A stretch of 64,000 bases of DNA from Spirochaetaceae bacterium (GCA_046541715.1 JBKHCS010000003.1:10759-74758), one strand, 5' to 3'. Counted from the stretch's first letter, positions 14,847 through 32,275 are shown. Numbers and translations are program-made. The notes: generated by a model from the sequence alone, not told the origin.

Positions 14847-16526
14847 ATGGCCAAGCGGCATCTGAGGTATGCATTCCTTACGCTCTTGTTCTTCTCGGCG
14901 GCCGGCGTGCCTCTCTTCGGGCAGACCGGCGTCCTGCGTTATGTAACCGGGGGGCTTTCTCCGGGGCCTCCCGCGTCCGTCGACGATCAGCTCTACGTTG
15001 TCTCCGAAGACCGCTATCTCTACGCCTTCGACTACGACGGTCTACGCCTCTGGCGTGCGGATCTGCGGCGGCGTCCCATCGGGCCCGCCGTACTAGGCCC
15101 CGACGGTACCATCTACGTGGCCCGGGACAACCGGGGGATTTCGGCGTACAACCGGCGGGGAGACCCTCTCTGGGACGCGGCGATTCGGGACATAACCTCC
15201 CCGCCGACGGTCACCCCCCGGGGTCTCCTGGTAGTTTCGCGAAACGGCGGCCGGATCTCCGTTCTTTCGCCCTCCGGCCGGCTTCTCAATTCCTTCCGGG
15301 GCCCCGGGACGTTTGGGGCCGAGCCGCTTCTTTCCTCGGACGGCTACCTGGTGCTTCGTGGGTCCGGAGGCGATCTCTCGATTGTCGACGGGGCCGGGAA
15401 TCTTGTCCGGCAGACCTCGTTCTCCCGGGCCCCCTCAGCGGTCGCGGTTATCGAGGAAGGGGGCCTCGCCCTCGGTTTTGACGACGGTAGGCTACTCTTC
15501 CTCGACGCCGACGGCCAGCTCTCCGGAGAGTGGAGGGCCCCGGCGGGGATTCGGGATCTCCGAATCGGAGGAACGACCGTCGCCGTCATCCTGACCGACG
15601 GGGTCCTCTGGGTCCTGGACCGGGAAGACGGCCGGGTCTGGCAGGCGAAACCTCCTGATGCGTTTCTCTCCGGAGTAGCTGTCGGAGAGCAATTGATCGC
15701 GGCGGTGTCCCAGGGGGGACACCTCTTCTACTATTCCCCCGTGGGGGATCTCCTGAGGGAATATCAGCTTCCGGAGAAGCCCGGTCTCGGCGACCCGACT
15801 ATTCTCGCCGGTGGCGGGGTCGCGGCGGTTGGGTCGAACTGGGTCGTCTACCTCTTTTCGACCGACGAGGAGAGCTGTGCGGCGCCATGGGGCTGTTATC
15901 GAGGGGGCCCGGAGCTACCCGGCCGAAGCAACGATCCAGGCGCCCGAGACCTCTTCTTACCCTCGGGCGTCGAAGGGAGCCTCGAGAGGATCTACTTCGA
16001 AAGGCTTCTCTTGTCCGACGATCCGGAGGAGCGCCGGACCGGTCTCGACGCCGTCGCCTCGCGGCTCGAGGAGGGACGCCTGGGGTCCATCCGGGTATAC
16101 ATCGTTCCCCTCCTTCGGAGCCTTGCCTTGGAGACACGAGGGCTCGGTAGATCCGCCGAAGAACGGCGCCGGGCTATCGGTATCCTCGGCCGGATTGGCA
16201 CCTACGAGGCCACAGGGGCCCTCTCGGACCTCGTTACGGGAGTCGAGGTGGATCTTCTCGAAAGCCTTGCCGAAGCGCTGGGAGGGCTTGGGAGCGATCC
16301 TACCGGGAGGGCGGCACGCTCCCTCCACCGGGTTCTTCTGCGAGAACCGAGTCCCCGTGTCGCCGGGGCTGTGGTCGAGGCTGCCGGCCGCTTGGTGGCG
16401 TACGCCGGAAGGATCTATTCGCCGTCGATCGAGGACATCATCTTGGAAATCTCGCAAGGTCGCTACCCGCTATCCCTAAAGAGGCGGGCATACCGCATCG
16501 GCTCCCTTGAATCCCTTGAGCCCTGA
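14847..16526 (+). CDS. secreted beta-propeller (PQQ-like repeat) / HEAT-like repeat protein
   Basis: Signal peptide LTLLFFSAAGVPLFGQ. N-terminal half has repeated G..Y(A/V)...G.L.A.D blocks; C-terminal half is helical and Leu/Arg-rich. Confidence 0.5.
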   Translation: MAKRHLRYAFLTLLFFSAAGVPLFGQTGVLRYVTGGLSPGPPASVDDQLYVVSEDRYLYAFDYDGLRLWRADLRRRPIGPAVLGPDGTIYVARDNRGISAYNRRGDPLWDAAIRDITSPPTVTPRGLLVVSRNGGRISVLSPSGRLLNSFRGPGTFGAEPLLSSDGYLVLRGSGGDLSIVDGAGNLVRQTSFSRAPSAVAVIEEGGLALGFDDGRLLFLDADGQLSGEWRAPAGIRDLRIGGTTVAVILTDGVLWVLDREDGRVWQAKPPDAFLSGVAVGEQLIAAVSQGGHLFYYSPVGDLLREYQLPEKPGLGDPTILAGGGVAAVGSNWVVYLFSTDEESCAAPWGCYRGGPELPGRSNDPGARDLFLPSGVEGSLERIYFERLLLSDDPEERRTGLDAVASRLEEGRLGSIRVYIVPLLRSLALETRGLGRSAEERRRAIGILGRIGTYEATGALSDLVTGVEVDLLESLAEALGGLGSDPTGRAARSLHRVLLREPSPRVAGAVVEAAGRLVAYAGRIYSPSIEDIILEISQGRYPLSLKRRAYRIGSLESLEP

Positions 16527-16568: not shown

Positions 16569-18089
16569 ATGCTTGCGAAACGTTTCTTGCGACGCCCGGC
16601 TCTTACCGCGGTCCTCCTTGCGTTGCTCTGGCCCCTCTCGGTTCTCGGGCAGACCTCCCTCGAGGTAGATGAAGAGGAGCTCGAGTCTCAGATCGACCGG
16701 TCGGTAGAGTTTCAGAACTATACCGGCCCCTACGACCGGATCGATCCGGCGCAGGAGATCTTCGATATCGGTCGTTCTCTCGCCGCCCAAGCCACCGCCC
16801 CGGGGGGCCGGGGACGGATCGGGAATAGCTACCGGATAGTGCGGGCGACGGACCCGGAAGTCCTCGAAGGGCTCGACGGCGACATTCTCTACATCCTGCC
16901 GGAGGGGCGGGTGGACCACATCGATAATGTTCGTCGAATTCTCGCCGGGTACCTCGAGGAGGCCTACGACTACAGCCGCCCCGACGCCTTGCTTCTCGCG
17001 GAGCTTGTTACCATCTATAACGCCATTTACCGGGGCGATCTCGATTTCTACCGGGGTCGGTACAAGGACGTGGTCATCCGCAATCTGTCGCCGAATAACG
17101 TCGGGATCTCGACCCTCTATTCCGACTGGCCCGGGGCCACCGAACTGGTTACCCCCCTCGACCGCGGCGCCGAGCCGGGGCGCCTAAGGTCCATCGATCC
17201 GGTCGAGCTGACCGACGAAAACGTCGAACAGGAGCTCCGGGAGCGGGAGGACCGGGGCATCGAGACCCGGGAGGATGCCGTCGACCTGATGGAGCGGGCG
17301 ATCGACCAGGAAGAAGAGCGCGTCCGGGAGGAGGAAGAGGCCATCGCCGAGGCAGAGGAGGAGCTCCGGCGGCGGGAGGAGGAGCTCCGGCAGGACGCCG
17401 AGGAGGCTACCACCGAAGAGGAACGGCAGCGCATCGACGAGGAACAAGCGGAAACCGACGAGGAGCGCCAAGAGCTATCGGAGCGTCGTGAAGCGGTAGA
17501 GGAGGAGCGGGAGGACGTCGAGGAGCTCACCGAGGCGGTAAGGGAGCGTCGCGAGCGTATCGCCGAAGACCGGCGGGAGCTTTTGGGCGCCGCGGAGAGC
17601 GCCGCCGAGGCCGGTCAGGTGCTCTTTCTCCGGGTCGGGGAACGGGGAGACGGGCCTCTCGGTCAGCTGGTCTACGTCGATGCGGAGACGGGACGGGTGG
17701 AAACCGAGTCGCCGGTCGCGACGGTTACCAGCCGTGCCTATGAGCGCATTTCGGGGGACCTTCTCCTCGTCGGGGAATCCGACGGTCGCTCACGGTTGCT
17801 CCTCTTCAACTCCGAAGACTTGACCGTTCGCCTCTCGGGAGAGGACGAGATCTTCCCGCGAAGCATTCTCGTCGTGCGGGACGGGGGCCGGGAGATCTAC
17901 GCGGTTGTCCGGGCCGACGGGGGGTGGCATCTTGGCCGGTTCGACGATACCCTGTCGCTCCGGGAGCGCTCGACACTGGTGGTAACCCCCTACACGAACG
18001 TCGAGTTCGGCGAAGAACGGGTCTGGGTTCAGGGGCAGGACGGGGGAATAGTCGGTCTCGATTCTGGGACCTTGGATCGGCTTCCGTAG
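16569..18089 (+). CDS. secreted protein with Glu/Arg-rich coiled-coil, possibly P83/100 family
   Basis: Signal peptide present. The N-terminal domain (DGDILYILPEGRVDHIDNVRRILAGYL, ELVTIYNAIYRGD) resembles the Borrelia P83/100 antigen family as I recall it. The central segment is about 110 aa of E/R-rich sequence. Confidence 0.45.
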   Translation: MLAKRFLRRPALTAVLLALLWPLSVLGQTSLEVDEEELESQIDRSVEFQNYTGPYDRIDPAQEIFDIGRSLAAQATAPGGRGRIGNSYRIVRATDPEVLEGLDGDILYILPEGRVDHIDNVRRILAGYLEEAYDYSRPDALLLAELVTIYNAIYRGDLDFYRGRYKDVVIRNLSPNNVGISTLYSDWPGATELVTPLDRGAEPGRLRSIDPVELTDENVEQELREREDRGIETREDAVDLMERAIDQEEERVREEEEAIAEAEEELRRREEELRQDAEEATTEEERQRIDEEQAETDEERQELSERREAVEEEREDVEELTEAVRERRERIAEDRRELLGAAESAAEAGQVLFLRVGERGDGPLGQLVYVDAETGRVETESPVATVTSRAYERISGDLLLVGESDGRSRLLLFNSEDLTVRLSGEDEIFPRSILVVRDGGREIYAVVRADGGWHLGRFDDTLSLRERSTLVVTPYTNVEFGEERVWVQGQDGGIVGLDSGTLDRLP

Positions 18090-18100
18090 CAGGTTTCGAT

Positions 18101-18122
18101 GTATCAACAAGCTTGTTGATAC
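18101..18122. repeat. perfect 22-bp palindrome GTATCAACAAGCTTGTTGATAC (family copy A)
   Basis: Read directly. Sits in the 39-nt gap between the convergent stops at 18089 and 18129. Confidence 0.9.
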
Positions 18123-18128
18123 GTAGGG

Positions 18129-18575
18129 CTACTTCTTGCCCCGGCGGAAGATCTTGCGGAATAGGCTTACGATCGCCTGCCAGATCTTCTTGAAAAGGCC
18201 GGGATTTTTCAGGCGGTCGAGACGAATGTAGGCATCCGCAAGCTCGTCGGTACTCAGGTTCTTGCGCTGGGTGTTCTCGTCGATTTCAACCTCGAGGAGC
18301 GCCGTTTCTTGGTTGGTGTCGATAATAGATGCCGTAATCCGCTGCCACCCAAGGCGGCGGGCCGCCTCTAATCGACGATGCCCCGCGACCAGCTGCCGGT
18401 CTCGGGTAATCACGATGGGATTCAGAAGCCCGTGGCGCCGCATGCTGTCCATGAGCAAGGTCAAGTCTCCCAGGTTCTTCCGTATCCGCTTACGGATAAG
18501 GACATCTCCCACCGCGATCTGCACGAGCTCCCGCTCGGAAGAGGGGAGGTTATCCTTTGCCGGTTGTCTTTTCAT
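18129..18575 (-). CDS. ParB/Srx N-terminal-domain protein lacking an HTH, with a C-terminal amphipathic helix
   Basis: GHRRLEAARRLG (GxxRxxA box) and IDENTQRKNL (ENxxR box). Only 148 aa. Tail is GLFKKIWQAIVSLFRKIFRRGKK. Starts 17 nt after the mrcA stop on the same strand. Confidence 0.7.
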   Translation of the reverse strand: MKRQPAKDNLPSSERELVQIAVGDVLIRKRIRKNLGDLTLLMDSMRRHGLLNPIVITRDRQLVAGHRRLEAARRLGWQRITASIIDTNQETALLEVEIDENTQRKNLSTDELADAYIRLDRLKNPGLFKKIWQAIVSLFRKIFRRGKK

Positions 18576-18592
18576 GATCCATCCGATGGCTC

Positions 18593-21127
18593 TTAGTCGA
18601 GAAGAGGATTCCCTTCCTCCGCTGAACGGTTTCCGTCCTCGGAACTCAACCCCGGGTCGAGATCCAGGGTAAAGTCGAGTTCGAAGGAACCGCGGTCAAA
18701 ATCCTCGCCGAGCTCCGGAGAGCCTGTGCTGAGTGAAAAATTCTGATTCGTGATGCTTCGCCGCAGCCTGTCCACGAGGACCGGCTGCTGCTCCCGCTCA
18801 AAGTCCTCGAGTCGATCGAACTCCTTCGGTTGCGTTCCCGACAGGAAGACCTCTTCGATTACGCGGCCGGTGTAGTTCTCCGTCGGCAGGAGGCCCGACC
18901 GGGCGGTAACGCGAACCCGGGTTATTCCGGAGGTCGGCTCGGGAAACTCCCGGGGCTCGAGGCCTTCGTGTATCTCTTTCATGTATCGGGCCCAGACGGG
19001 ACCCGCGGTTACGGCCCCGGTCTGGTTGGTTCCCAACGAGTTGCTGCCACCCCGGTCGAATCCGAACCAGATTGCCGTCGTGTAGTACGGGGTAAAGCCG
19101 AGGGTCCAGGCGTCGGCCCAATTCTGGGTGGTTCCGGTCTTTCCGGCGGTCGGCTGATCGAATCCGTCGACGAGCGATTCGGCCCACCTCAAGGTCCCGC
19201 TTTCGACGGTGGTCTGGAGCATATCGGTCATAATGTACGCCGTCTGGGGGCTGATAATCTGGGCGTCTTGGCCTTTCCGTTGCTGGTCTATCCGAAGGTC
19301 CTGTTCCGGCTCCATGATGATGCGGCCGTTGCGGTCCTCGATGTAGCGAATGCCGATGGGTACTACCTCTTGGCCTTGGTTCGCGATAGTGGCGAACGCC
19401 TTCGCCATCTCGATCGGGGCAACTTCGACGATGCCGAGACCCACGGGATACCGGCGTACCAGGTTACGACGCACCATGTCCTCTTCGGGAATGCCGAGGA
19501 GGCGCCGGGTGGTCGTGAGAGCCTCGGTAAACCCAACTCGCTCGAGAATTCTCAAGGAAGGCACGTTCATTGACTGCGCCAGGGCGTGCCGGACGAGGAC
19601 CGGCCCCTTCCATTCGCCCCGGTAGTTCTGAGGCGTGTAGGGGGTCCCGTCGTCGTTCCAGAAGACCACCGGAGAGTCGTAGATCATCGTGGCGGGTGTT
19701 ATGACTTTGTTCTCGATCGCCGCCGAGTAGTACAACGGTTTGAAGGAGGACCCCGGTTCTACGGAGGCGTCGACCGCCCGGTTGAACTGGTTCCGGGCTT
19801 CGAAGCGGCTACCTCCTACCATGGCCAGTATACGGCCCGTGCCGTTCTCCAGAGTAATCAGCGCCCCTTCGACGGTCGTGCGTCTTGCCTCGAGTTCGGT
19901 CGTCGCGTAGGACACCTGGACGGCGTCCCGAATCTCGGTGTCGTCGCTCCCGAAGAGGAGGGCGACGGCGTCGACGATCGGGTTGAGCTCTTCCCGGTAG
20001 TAGGATTTGGCCTCCTGGAGCTGCTTCGCGTTGCCGATTCGGAAGTCGCCGATATTGAACGCCAAGGACAAGAGATCTATGACCGGGACGAGATCGTTTC
20101 CCTCCGTCGACCGCCGAGAGGAGTTGCTCTGGTAGATCCGGTTTGCCGATTCGAGGCCCTCTTGCATGTAGCGGTCCGCCGCCGCCTGGTAGTCCAGGTC
20201 GAGGGTGGTGTAGACGGTAAACCCGTCCCGGTTTATGTCGAGGCTCCCGAGTAGCAGCTCGTTTTCCAGTTGATAGCGAACGTACTCGCTAAAGAAGGGG
20301 GCTCGGTCCTCCCGCTCAAAGAACGCCGTCGAGGTGCTCGCCCGCGTGAAATCGTAGTTGCTCCAGTACGCCTCGAATGATTCGTCGACCCGGGACTGGG
20401 TGGTGTATCCCAGCTCGACCATCTGATCGAGGATTGTCCGTTGCATTCTCCGAGCCTCGTTCGGCCGACGTATCGGCGAGTAGAGCGACGGGTTGGCCAA
20501 CTGGATAACCAGAAGGGCCGATTCGGCGATGGTGATGTCCCGGGCCGAGTGGCCGAAGTAATACTGGCTTGCGGCTTCCACGCCGTAGTTTCCATGACCG
20601 AAGAACATTGTGTTCAGGTACTTCTCGAGAATCTCGTACTTGGTCCAGTGCCGTTCGAGTTGTAGGGCCCACCAAAGCTCCCGGAGCTTCCGAGTTACCG
20701 AAAACTCGCTTCGGTCGGCGTAAAGGTGGCCCGCAAGCTGTTGCGTAAGGGTACTTCCGCCGCCGGAGTAGGAACCCCTCAACAGGTCGAAGGCCGCCTT
20801 TGAAGTCCGGACGAAGTCGAATCCGTTGTGATCGAAGAATCGCCTGTCTTCCCGGGTAATCAGGGCGTAGATAAGATGCCTCGGAAGCTCGTCGATCGTA
20901 ACGAGCTCCCGGTTTTCATCCGAAAAGAACTCGGTAATCAGGCGGCCTTTGACATCCAGAATCTCGGATGGGAGCGCCGCAACTTGAGTTCCGACGCTCT
21001 CGAGGTCGCCGACGTTTCTCACGGAGGCTATGGCTAATCCGGTCGTAATCCCGAGGGTCAGCGCCATCGCCCCGGCGACGGCAAGGGCAACTCGGAGAAC
21101 CACCCGGCGTTTTCTCTTTGGACTCAT
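18593..21127 (-). CDS. mrcA: class A penicillin-binding protein (PBP1A-type transglycosylase/transpeptidase)
   Basis: GT51 motifs (REDRRFFDHNGFD, GGSTLTQQLA) and transpeptidase SSFKP (SxxK). N-terminal TM anchor. Confidence 0.9.
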   Translation of the reverse strand: MSPKRKRRVVLRVALAVAGAMALTLGITTGLAIASVRNVGDLESVGTQVAALPSEILDVKGRLITEFFSDENRELVTIDELPRHLIYALITREDRRFFDHNGFDFVRTSKAAFDLLRGSYSGGGSTLTQQLAGHLYADRSEFSVTRKLRELWWALQLERHWTKYEILEKYLNTMFFGHGNYGVEAASQYYFGHSARDITIAESALLVIQLANPSLYSPIRRPNEARRMQRTILDQMVELGYTTQSRVDESFEAYWSNYDFTRASTSTAFFEREDRAPFFSEYVRYQLENELLLGSLDINRDGFTVYTTLDLDYQAAADRYMQEGLESANRIYQSNSSRRSTEGNDLVPVIDLLSLAFNIGDFRIGNAKQLQEAKSYYREELNPIVDAVALLFGSDDTEIRDAVQVSYATTELEARRTTVEGALITLENGTGRILAMVGGSRFEARNQFNRAVDASVEPGSSFKPLYYSAAIENKVITPATMIYDSPVVFWNDDGTPYTPQNYRGEWKGPVLVRHALAQSMNVPSLRILERVGFTEALTTTRRLLGIPEEDMVRRNLVRRYPVGLGIVEVAPIEMAKAFATIANQGQEVVPIGIRYIEDRNGRIIMEPEQDLRIDQQRKGQDAQIISPQTAYIMTDMLQTTVESGTLRWAESLVDGFDQPTAGKTGTTQNWADAWTLGFTPYYTTAIWFGFDRGGSNSLGTNQTGAVTAGPVWARYMKEIHEGLEPREFPEPTSGITRVRVTARSGLLPTENYTGRVIEEVFLSGTQPKEFDRLEDFEREQQPVLVDRLRRSITNQNFSLSTGSPELGEDFDRGSFELDFTLDLDPGLSSEDGNRSAEEGNPLLD

Positions 21128-21134
21128 CAGGGGT

Positions 21135-21164
21135 AGGGTAGGGAGAGCCGCAAAGCTTTGTCAA
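21135..21164 (-). promoter_or_regulatory. sigma70-type promoter for mrcA (TTGACA-N18-TACCCT), 7 nt before the ATG
   Basis: On the minus strand: TTGACAaagctttgcggctctcccTACCCTacccctgATG. No SD. Confidence 0.4.
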
Positions 21165-21169
21165 GCGAG

Positions 21170-21200
21170 AAAAAAAGAGGGCCGGCCAAAAGGCCGGCCC
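21170..21200 (-). terminator. intrinsic terminator (GGGCCGGCC-UUUU-GGCCGGCCC followed by U7)
   Basis: Perfect 9-bp GC stem, 4-nt loop and a 7-nt T run on the minus strand. Ends the 28103->21305 operon. Confidence 0.8.
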
Positions 21201-32253: not shown

Positions 32254-32275
32254 ATATCAACAGGCTTGTTGACAC
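32254..32275. repeat. palindrome family copy C ATATCAACAGGCTTGTTGACAC
   Basis: Shares the arms and the flanking cga.. / ..ACGT with copy A. Begins 4 nt past the tRNA-Thr 3' end. Confidence 0.85.

What the first reader, a model, noticed from the sequence alone, without database searches (positions are those of the whole stretch)
18129..18575. HTH-less ParB/Srx CTPase-fold mini-protein with a membrane-targeting-like helix, downstream of PBP1A
The 148-aa protein keeps the ParB N-domain nucleotide-binding boxes (LVAGHRRLEAARRLG matching GxxRxxA, and EIDENTQRKNL matching ENxxR). It has no HTH or dimerisation domain. Instead it ends in GLFKKIWQAIVSLFRKIFRRGKK, whose hydrophobic residues follow an i/i+3/i+4 pattern with a Lys/Arg face, like MinD/FtsA-type amphipathic membrane anchors. 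The gene starts 17 nt after the mrcA stop on the same strand, with no terminator between, so it is probably co-transcribed with the class A PBP. The operon ends at the perfect palindrome. A CTP/NTP-switch module tethered to the membrane and linked to peptidoglycan synthesis would be an undescribed use of the ParB fold. An Srx-like or nuclease-like role is equally open.
Basis: partly seen in the sequence, partly recalled or inferred. Interest (0 to 1): 0.6.

Follow-up and report, generated by a model that had tools for sequence, protein, structure and literature searches.

The report
Membrane-anchored mini-ParB nucleotide switch of spirochaetes
A small spirochaete gene just after the cell-wall synthase PBP1A encodes only the nucleotide-binding module of the chromosome-partition protein ParB plus a membrane-binding helix, which suggests an unstudied, probably CTP-controlled, membrane switch that also occurs in Borrelia and Leptospira.

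Summary
Window 18129-18575 on the minus strand encodes a 148-aa protein with a ParB N-terminal domain, no HTH and no dimerisation domain. It ends in a strongly amphipathic cationic helix.

- **Distribution:** it is the founding-type member of a family of about 125-150 aa. About 145 of 301 sampled Spirochaetota genomes carry it, in 36 of 56 family-level groups, including Borrelia turicatae and Leptospira tipperaryensis.
- **Nucleotide pocket:** all seven positions whose mutation abolishes CTP binding in Caulobacter ParB are invariant in 50 of 50 sequences. Two of the three hydrolysis-linked positions (Gln, and the Glu of GERR) are variable, as in the non-hydrolysing CTP binder PadC.
- **Membrane link:** the tail helix is conserved phylum-wide. 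In four Treponema-like orthologues it is followed by two predicted transmembrane helices, which independently places the family at the membrane.
- **Gene context:** PBP1A lies directly upstream on the same strand in nine families of class Spirochaetia and in 70 of 72 Spirochaetales loci. It does not in other classes.
- **Rejected readings:** an Srx-like role is excluded because the protein has no cysteine. The terminal palindrome is one of 63 dispersed REP/MITE-like copies.

Best reading: an NTP (probably CTP)-driven dimerisation and membrane-binding switch with slow or no hydrolysis. No biochemistry exists and no paper describes it. I class it as a new variant of a known kind.

The parts
21179..21200 (-). 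Strong intrinsic terminator of the upstream (Mla-like/M23/PEGA) operon. It marks the upstream boundary of the PBP1A-mini-ParB unit.
   Evidence: 9 G-C pairs, a 4-nt loop and a T-run.
21135..21164 (-). Candidate promoter of the two-gene unit. The -35 is TTGACA (21159-21164) and the -10-like element is TAcccT (21135-21140). The ATG lies only about 8 nt further on, so the mRNA may be leaderless. This is an inference.
   Evidence: Read from the sequence. The strict consensus scan did not call it.
18593..21127 (-). Class A penicillin-binding protein (PBP1A), 844 aa.
   Evidence: Transgly 2.1e-56, Transpeptidase 2.7e-28; TIGR02074, 587 bits against a cut-off of 508.75.
18576..18592 (-). 17-nt spacer between the PBP1A stop and the mini-ParB ATG. 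It holds a weak SD-like GGATGG and no terminator or promoter.
18129..18575 (-). Mini-ParB ORF, 148 aa including the stop at 18129-18131.
18207..18524 (-). ParB N-terminal (ParB-CTPase) fold, residues 18-123. It includes helices equivalent to ParB alpha3 and alpha4.
18486..18488 (-). R30, equivalent to the P-motif 1 arginine (C. crescentus R60). Invariant in 50 of 50 sequences. R32 is also invariant.
18429..18446 (-). C-motif S44-x4-G49 (SMRRHG), equivalent to C. crescentus S74 and G79, the cytosine contacts. Both are invariant.
18372..18383 (-). Box II / P-motif 2, G65-H66-R67-R68. G, R and R are invariant. Position 66 (Glu in GERR) is variable across the family.
18264..18278 (-). Box III / P-motif 3, E100-N101-T-Q-R104. 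E, N and R are invariant.
18132..18200 (-). C-terminal cationic amphipathic helix, residues 126-148, after a near-invariant N-P-G hinge. This is the predicted in-plane membrane anchor.
18101..18122 (.). Perfect 22-bp palindrome between the convergent mini-ParB and P83-like genes. It is one member of a 63-copy REP/MITE-like family. It forms a hairpin without a U-tract.

Best explanation
The gene encodes a stand-alone nucleotide-binding module of the ParB/Noc type. It has no DNA-binding or C-terminal dimerisation domain. A C-terminal cationic amphipathic helix holds it on the cytoplasmic face of the inner membrane.

Proposed mechanism (inferred, not shown):
1. NTP binding, most likely CTP, makes two N-domains close around two nucleotides, as in the ParB and Noc 'N-gate'.
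2. The dimer presents two amphipathic helices, so its membrane avidity rises. This is the logic of MinD and Noc.
3. Release is slow or depends on a partner, because the residues linked to CTP hydrolysis are not conserved.

The gene is co-expressed with the class A PBP. It probably acts on a membrane-proximal process of envelope growth rather than on DNA.

Shown by sequence: the fold, the intact binding pocket, the conserved tail, the TM-extended orthologues and the operon structure. Inferred: nucleotide identity, dimerisation, membrane binding and the functional tie to PBP1A.
For: **Fold and family.** ParB_N scores above the Pfam cut-off. Profile matches to solved Noc and ParB structures reach 1e-13. 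The top Foldseek hits of the AF2 model are ParB-N, Noc, PadC and ParB-CTP.

**Binding pocket.** hhalign against the genome's own ParB fixes the register. On that register, the equivalents of C. crescentus R60, S74, G79, R103, R104, N136 and R139 are R30, S44, G49, R67, R68, N101 and R104. Alanine substitution at each of the seven Caulobacter residues abolishes CTP binding (PMC8367383). All seven equivalents are invariant in 50 of 50 sequences across the phylum, and so is E100, the E135 equivalent.

**Dimerisation elements.** Both helices that ParB exchanges between subunits on CTP binding (alpha3 and alpha4) are present.

**Tail.** The hydrophobic moment is 0.83, reached by 1 of 10,000 shuffles. 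The net charge of the last 32 residues is +6 to +12 in all 30 aligned homologues. The helix is conserved from Borrelia to Leptospira.

**Independent membrane evidence.** Four Treponema-like orthologues add two hydrophobic segments (KD19 2.1-2.7) after the helix, and the same architecture recurs among library representatives of 195-205 aa.

**Operon.** The gap to PBP1A is 17 nt. A terminator lies upstream of PBP1A and none lies between the genes. PBP1A is directly upstream in families f1-f9 and in 70 of 72 Spirochaetales loci. In Borrelia turicatae only the PBP1A-mini-ParB pair is shared with the window; its other neighbours are pgi and a PlzA-like gene.

**Orphan status.** The genome has a separate canonical parAB.
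Against: - No experiment exists for any member.
- Nucleotide specificity of this fold cannot be predicted from sequence or by AlphaFold3 (Kaljevic et al. 2025). The nearest outgroup is phage-type ParB-like proteins (phrog_12047) and ParB_N-methyltransferase fusions. SAM-methyltransferase fusions of this fold were reported to bind ATP.
- The positions equivalent to Q58 and E102 are variable, so the protein may bind nucleotide without cycling.
- Dimerisation could not be modelled, because no multimer tool was available.
- The model's confidence in the tail is only moderate, with pLDDT around 60-75.
- PBP1A adjacency is absent in most genomes of one Treponema-like genus, in Leptospira-like genomes and in other classes. 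About half of the sampled genomes lack the gene although they are spirochaetes. Any link to PBP1A is therefore not obligatory and may partly reflect inherited synteny.
Confidence: 0.5

Rival explanations
1. The protein has the same fold and membrane anchor, but its partner is the chromosome machinery and not the cell wall. The N-domain heterodimerises with the N-domain of canonical ParB (or with another ParB-like protein). This tethers or titrates ParB-DNA complexes at the membrane, like a Noc split into two polypeptides.
For: All elements of the ParB N-gate interface are retained. Every genome examined also has a canonical ParB. Noc shows that ParB-fold proteins can bridge DNA and membrane.
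Against: Identity to the genome's own ParB N-domain is only 36%. No parA, parB or smc linkage was seen in any of 120 or more neighbourhoods. The N-terminal ParA-interaction peptide is absent, by direct reading.
Confidence: 0.12
2. The C-terminal helix is not a membrane anchor. It is a nucleic-acid-binding or self-association helix, and the protein is a soluble nucleotide-binding regulator.
For: The tail is very basic, with a net charge of +10 over the last 32 residues. Cationic amphipathic helices can bind DNA or RNA or form coiled coils. The AF2 confidence in the tail is moderate.
Against: The hydrophobic face is rich in Phe, Trp, Ile and Leu, which is typical of interfacial helices. Orthologues in two Treponema-like genera extend the tail into two predicted TM helices with positive-inside ends. 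It is hard to see why a soluble DNA binder would acquire these.
Confidence: 0.12
3. It is an enzyme of the wider ParB/Srx superfamily (nuclease, kinase or sulfiredoxin-like) rather than a switch.
For: The superfamily contains Srx, SerK and proteins annotated as ParB-like nucleases. There are weak matches to Srx (6e-4) and SerK (8e-4), and the PHROG family names say 'partition nuclease'.
Against: The protein has no cysteine, so Srx chemistry is impossible. Position 66, the only candidate catalytic His, varies among H, Q, E, Y, F, G, R and A. The conserved residues are exactly the nucleotide-binding set of ParB. The 'nuclease' labels are annotation names, not tested functions.
Confidence: 0.05
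4. The PBP1A adjacency is inherited synteny without functional meaning, and the protein acts in an unrelated membrane process.
For: In Spirochaetales the whole block M23-PEGA-PBP1A-miniParB-P83-BamB-like-Rex is syntenic. Outside the class the neighbours differ: metK, a lipoprotein with an HExxH motif, or the gcv genes.
Against: The pair survives where all other neighbours have changed, as in Borrelia and in families f7 and f8. The gaps are tight, at 5-67 nt, with no internal terminator. PBP1A or an M23 peptidase remains within a few genes in further lineages.
Confidence: 0.2

Closest known systems
Noc (nucleoid occlusion protein, Bacillus subtilis / Geobacillus; PDB 7NFU, 7NG0, 7OL9)
   Same: It has a ParB-CTPase N-domain with the same C-motif and P-motifs. 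It is the best solved-structure sequence match (1e-13). It combines the nucleotide module with a cationic amphipathic membrane-targeting helix whose membrane binding is controlled by CTP.
   Different: Noc has an HTH that binds NBS DNA and a C-terminal dimerisation domain, and its amphipathic helix is N-terminal. Here there is no DNA-binding or dimerisation domain and the helix is C-terminal. TIGR04285 scores 54.5 bits against a cut-off of 315, so this protein is not a Noc.
Chromosomal ParB/Spo0J CTPase clamps (e.g. C. crescentus ParB, 6T1F/7BM8)
   Same: All seven residues essential for CTP binding are conserved, and so are the alpha3 and alpha4 helices that swap on N-engagement.
   Different: There is no ParA-binding peptide, HTH, parS binding or C-terminal domain. 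The Gln of QPR and the Glu of GERR are not conserved. The gene is not in a parAB operon.
PadC (Myxococcus xanthus bactofilin adaptor, PDB 6RYK)
   Same: It is a ParB-like domain used outside DNA clamping. It binds CTP without detectable hydrolysis. It has non-catalytic residues (Phe) at the Q58 and E102 positions, exactly as in the Borrelia and many other orthologues.
   Different: PadC is a larger protein that bridges ParA to bactofilin. It has no membrane helix, and sequence similarity to it is weak (9e-4).
MinD / FtsA-type C-terminal membrane-targeting sequences
   Same: They are short C-terminal cationic amphipathic helices. In MinD, nucleotide-dependent dimerisation doubles the helix and drives membrane binding, which is the logic proposed here.
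   Different: The nucleotide module is unrelated (P-loop ATPase or actin fold).
Phage-type ParB-like proteins (phrog_12047) and ParB_N-DNA methyltransferase fusions
   Same: This is the best profile match of the N-domain (86.5 bits). These proteins share the N-terminal R-x-R-x3-GD motif in place of QPR.
   Different: They are 270-430 aa with C-terminal coiled-coil, HTH-like or methylase parts and no amphipathic tail. The profile match stops at about position 110.

Membership tests
ParB-CTPase fold (Pfam PF02195 ParB_N) | Sequence match above the curated cut-off | tested here: met
   35.8 bits against 26.3. The fold is confirmed by the AF2 model and Foldseek.
ParB-CTPase fold (Pfam PF02195 ParB_N) | Nucleotide-contacting residues: the C-motif Ser and Gly; the P-motif 1 Arg; the GxRR of Box II; the ENxxR of Box III | tested here: met
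   R30, S44, G49, G65, R67, R68, E100, N101 and R104 are invariant in 50 of 50 sequences. Their roles are taken from PMC8367383.
ParB-CTPase fold (Pfam PF02195 ParB_N) | Residues linked to CTP hydrolysis (the Gln of QPR and the Glu of GERR) | tested here: not met
   Position 28 is K, R, G and others. Position 66 is H here and Q, E, Y, F, G, R or A elsewhere.
ParB-CTPase fold (Pfam PF02195 ParB_N) | Binding and hydrolysis of CTP | not testable with these tools
   This needs DRaCALA or ITC and a phosphate-release assay. Specificity cannot be predicted from sequence.
Canonical ParB/Spo0J partition protein | HTH parS-binding domain, C-terminal dimerisation domain, N-terminal ParA-binding peptide and a parAB operon | tested here: not met
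   The protein ends one helix after the N-domain. No other Pfam domain matches. TIGR00180 scores 52.8 bits against a cut-off of 58.45. The genome's true parAB is on another contig.
Noc | Equivalog-level match, an NBS-binding HTH and an N-terminal amphipathic helix | tested here: not met
   TIGR04285 scores 54.5 bits against 315. There is no HTH. The helix is C-terminal.
Sulfiredoxin | Catalytic Cys in the GCHR motif | tested here: not met
   The 148-aa sequence has no cysteine. The Srx match is only 6e-4.
Amphipathic in-plane membrane anchors (MinD/FtsA/Noc type) | Terminal helix with a high hydrophobic moment, a cationic face and conservation across homologues | tested here: met
   The hydrophobic moment is 0.83, reached by 1 of 10,000 shuffles. 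The helix is conserved in 30 of 30 and 50 of 50 aligned sequences.
Amphipathic in-plane membrane anchors (MinD/FtsA/Noc type) | Actual membrane binding | not testable with these tools
   The only support is indirect: orthologues with an added two-TM hairpin.

The most novel reading that the evidence does not exclude
This is a MinD-like switch built on the ParB fold with no role in DNA. CTP-dependent dimerisation drives reversible membrane binding. The membrane-bound form positions or regulates the class A PBP, or the zones of peptidoglycan insertion, in spirochaetes, and so couples envelope growth to the CTP pool. It would be the first ParB-type nucleotide switch that works entirely without DNA, and it would be conserved in the Lyme disease, relapsing fever and leptospirosis agents.
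Probability: 0.22. Interest if true: 0.85.

Novelty: new variant of a known kind. Interest (0 to 1): 0.62.

Why it matters
CTP switches of the ParB type are known only from DNA-bound clamps (ParB, Noc, KorB, VirB, BisD) and from the adaptor PadC. A 2025 survey of the fold found short single-domain forms mainly in phages and archaea. In the full-text search it mentions neither spirochaetes nor an amphipathic helix.

This family is ancient, vertically inherited and chromosomal. It keeps the complete nucleotide pocket but replaces the DNA-binding half with a membrane anchor. It sits in an operon with the main peptidoglycan synthase in Borrelia, in many Treponema-like genomes and in free-living spirochaetes.

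If the proposed mechanism holds, it shows that the ParB fold can work as a general membrane-recruitment switch. It would also give a handle on how spirochaetes organise cell-wall growth. Because the protein is small, the question is directly testable: nucleotide binding, liposome binding, localisation and depletion.

Tried and rejected
2. **Literature.** No paper in the library mentions BB0731. The one BB0732 paper only lists PBP1a. Searches for ParB, CTP, amphipathic helix and spirochaete terms, and for 'ParB-CTPase', found nothing on this family.
3. **Defence-system membership.** PADLOC gave only a weak ParB_N-methylase cross-hit. Rejected.
4. **The palindrome as a dedicated terminator, operator or parS-like site.** Rejected. 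There are 63 dispersed copies, 13 doublets at 123-134 bp spacing and no U-tract.
5. **A single conserved partner outside class Spirochaetia.** Clustering of neighbours in 21 loci gave lineage-specific contexts only. These were an HExxH lipoprotein without a Pfam match in five families, metK/ClpS in Leptospira-like genomes, and gcvT/gcvP between PBP1A and the mini-ParB in two families.
6. **Srx or nuclease reading.** Rejected (see the rival explanations).
7. **Homodimer or heterodimer modelling.** Not possible with the single-chain predictor.
8. **An alternative downstream start at V18.** Not adopted. The N-terminal extension is conserved in the closest relatives, and the ATG sits 17 nt after the PBP1A stop.

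Full report
**Observation**

The ORF is on the minus strand at 18129-18575 and is 148 aa long.
- Pfam finds only ParB_N, at 35.8 bits against a cut-off of 26.3.
- NCBIfam gives partial sub-threshold matches to the N-terminal part of Noc and of ParB.
- The gene upstream on the same strand (18593-21127) is a bona fide PBP1A.
- The gap between the two genes is 17 nt and contains no terminator-like or promoter-like site.
- A strong terminator at 21179-21200 closes the preceding operon. It is followed by a perfect TTGACA about 30 nt before the PBP1A ATG.

PBP1A and the mini-ParB therefore look like a self-contained bicistronic unit.

**Family and distribution**

The protein has 199 significant relatives among size-matched candidates. 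All the named ones are Spirochaetota, and the source annotations are only generic ('ParB N-terminal domain-containing protein' or 'ParB family').

A profile scan of 301 Spirochaetota genomes gave a bimodal result.
- About 145 genomes, from 36 of 56 family-level groups, have a full-length hit at E of 1e-26 or better, in an open frame of about 125-150 aa.
- Canonical ParBs score only 1e-12 to 1e-18.

Exact-sequence look-up identifies two of the genomes as Borrelia turicatae and Leptospira tipperaryensis.

In the 1.8-billion-protein representative library, about 100 clusters at 50% identity cover the whole profile including the tail. The next-best hits (1e-24 to 1e-28) are proteins of 270-430 aa that match only profile positions 1 to about 110. 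They belong to phage-type ParB-like proteins (phrog_12047), and one is a ParB_N-N6/N4 methylase fusion. The window protein itself scores 86.5 bits on phrog_12047. That is higher than its score on Pfam ParB_N or the Noc model, so its nearest outgroup is this phage-type clade. The window's genome also has an ordinary parA-parB pair on another contig.

**Nucleotide pocket**

A profile-profile alignment to the genome's own ParB fixes the register. I mapped it onto the alanine scan of C. crescentus ParB (Jalal et al. 2021, PMC8367383). That study sorts the pocket residues into two sets.

Residues whose mutation abolishes or weakens CTP binding, with their equivalents here:

| C. crescentus ParB | Mini-ParB |
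|---|---|
| R60 | R30 |
| S74 | S44 |
| G79 | G49 |
| R103 | R67 |
| R104 | R68 |
| N136 | N101 |
| R139 | R104 |

All seven are invariant in a 50-sequence alignment that spans Borrelia-, Treponema- and Leptospira-like genomes and many uncultured lineages.

Residues whose mutation leaves binding intact but stops hydrolysis:
- E135 corresponds to E100, which is invariant.
- Q58 corresponds to position 28, which is K, R, G and others.
- E102 corresponds to position 66, which is H in 4 sequences, Q in 9, E in 9, Y in 16, F in 9, and G, R and A in 1 each.

The same paper notes that PadC binds CTP but does not hydrolyse it, and that it has Phe at both of these positions. The helices equivalent to ParB alpha3 and alpha4, which swap between subunits on CTP binding, are both present.

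I therefore infer nucleotide binding and N-domain dimerisation, with slow, absent or partner-dependent hydrolysis. CTP is the most likely ligand: the cytosine-contacting Ser and Gly are kept and Box III is retained. However, Kaljevic et al. 2025 show that this fold can bind ATP or GTP and that specificity cannot be predicted from sequence.

Srx-type chemistry is excluded because the protein has no cysteine. A catalytic role for His66 is unlikely because the position is not conserved.

**Tail and membrane**

- Residues 127-144 have a hydrophobic moment of 0.83, reached by 1 of 10,000 shuffles of the same residues.
- The helix follows a near-invariant Asn-Pro-Gly hinge.
- The consensus FRRxWxAIxxFFRRLF is kept throughout the phylum.
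- AF2 models a single helix at 125-144 after the ParB fold, with moderate confidence.
- The window protein has no segment hydrophobic enough to span a bilayer (maximum KD19 of 0.7).
- Four orthologues from two Treponema-like genera, and several library representatives of 195-205 aa, continue after the amphipathic helix into two strongly hydrophobic segments (KD19 2.1-2.7) with basic ends.

This fusion-type evidence is independent of the helix argument. It places the family at the cytoplasmic face of the membrane.

**Gene context**

- PBP1A lies directly upstream on the same strand in families f1-f9 of class Spirochaetia. These include the Borrelia locus, where the order is pgi - mini-ParB - PBP1A - divergent PlzA-like gene. 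This matches the B. burgdorferi numbering in which PBP1a is BB_0732. The orthologue there should be BB_0731, which is an inference from position.
- PBP1A is also directly upstream in 70 of 72 Spirochaetales loci from GTDB genomes.
- In Borrelia and in two further families, no other neighbour is shared with the window, so the pair itself is what is conserved.
- The adjacency is absent in most genomes of one Treponema-like genus. There an M23 peptidase and a lipoprotein precede the gene.
- It is also absent in Leptospira-like genomes and in other classes. In two families, gcvT and gcvP sit between PBP1A and the mini-ParB on the same strand.

I read this as moderate support for a functional tie to envelope synthesis, not proof.

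**The palindrome**

The 22-bp palindrome at 18101-18122 folds into a hairpin of -13.7 kcal/mol on the mRNA strand, but no U-tract follows it.
- A degenerate version occurs 63 times in the 3.3-Mb genome, against 0 for the reversed control.
- 13 pairs are spaced 123-134 bp apart.
- 13 copies lie within 200 nt of contig ends.

It is a REP/MITE-like repeat. It may stabilise or end the transcript, but it is not specific to this operon.

**Comparison with known systems and novelty**

In working logic the protein is closest to three systems:
- Noc, where a ParB-fold CTP switch controls an amphipathic membrane helix;
- MinD, where nucleotide-driven dimerisation doubles a C-terminal helix;
- PadC, where a ParB fold binds CTP without hydrolysing it and has no DNA-clamp function.

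It is not a member of the Noc, canonical ParB or Srx families, because defining features were tested and not met (see the membership table). No paper in the searchable library describes it.

Other windows of this scan flagged the same family in other genomes, and one follow-up reached a similar reading. Those notes are not independent evidence. This report adds five things:
- the residue-by-residue mapping to the Caulobacter mutational classes;
- the variable hydrolysis positions;
- the orthologues extended by two TM helices;
- the phylum-wide census;
- the phage-type outgroup.

**Verdict**

This is a real, conserved and uncharacterised variant of the ParB nucleotide-switch fold. My confidence is about 0.75 that it is a membrane-associated NTP-binding module. 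It is about 0.5 for the full model of a dimerisation-driven membrane switch co-expressed with PBP1A, and about 0.2-0.35 for a direct role in PBP1A or peptidoglycan control.

Noticed in passing
window 18101-18122; also 32254-32275 and 62 other places in the genome (e.g. G000:C204:4081/4205, C57:7431/7555): The palindrome TATCAACANGCNTGTTGATA is a dispersed repeat with 63 copies at 2 mismatches or fewer, against 0 for the reversed control. There are 13 doublets spaced 123-134 bp, and 13 copies lie within 200 nt of contig ends. It looks like a REP/MITE-like element and not a three-copy operator family.
   Followed up: partly
window 21135-21164 (minus strand): A perfect -35 TTGACA and a TAcccT -10-like hexamer end about 8 nt before the PBP1A ATG, directly after the upstream terminator. 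The PBP1A mRNA may be leaderless or nearly so.
   Followed up: no
L016, L021, L026, L028 (Treponema-like genomes G054, G235, G250, G152): These mini-ParB orthologues carry a C-terminal extension of 70-100 aa with two predicted transmembrane helices after the amphipathic helix.
   Followed up: partly
L037, L040, L041, L043, L050 (five family-level groups outside class Spirochaetia): The mini-ParB is followed on the same strand by a lipoprotein of 620-660 aa with an HExxH motif and no Pfam match. A related 585-aa protein in L045 gives a faint Peptidase_M1 hit.
   Followed up: partly
L046 and L049 (families f25, f33): The same-strand gene order is PBP1A - gcvT-like - two glycine-dehydrogenase-sized genes - mini-ParB. 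This suggests an insertion into an ancestral PBP1A-mini-ParB pair.
   Followed up: no
window 16569-18089 (+) and 14847-16526 (+): A Borrelia P83/100-family protein (2.3e-81) and a BamB-like beta-propeller/HEAT protein converge on the mini-ParB. The block M23-PEGA-PBP1A-miniParB-P83-propeller-Rex is syntenic in most Spirochaetales loci.
   Followed up: partly
proteins P0193-P0266 (representative library): The nearest outgroup of the family consists of ParB_N proteins of 270-430 aa of phage type (phrog_12047). They share the R-x-R-x3-GD motif. One is a ParB_N-N6/N4 DNA methylase fusion.
   Followed up: partly
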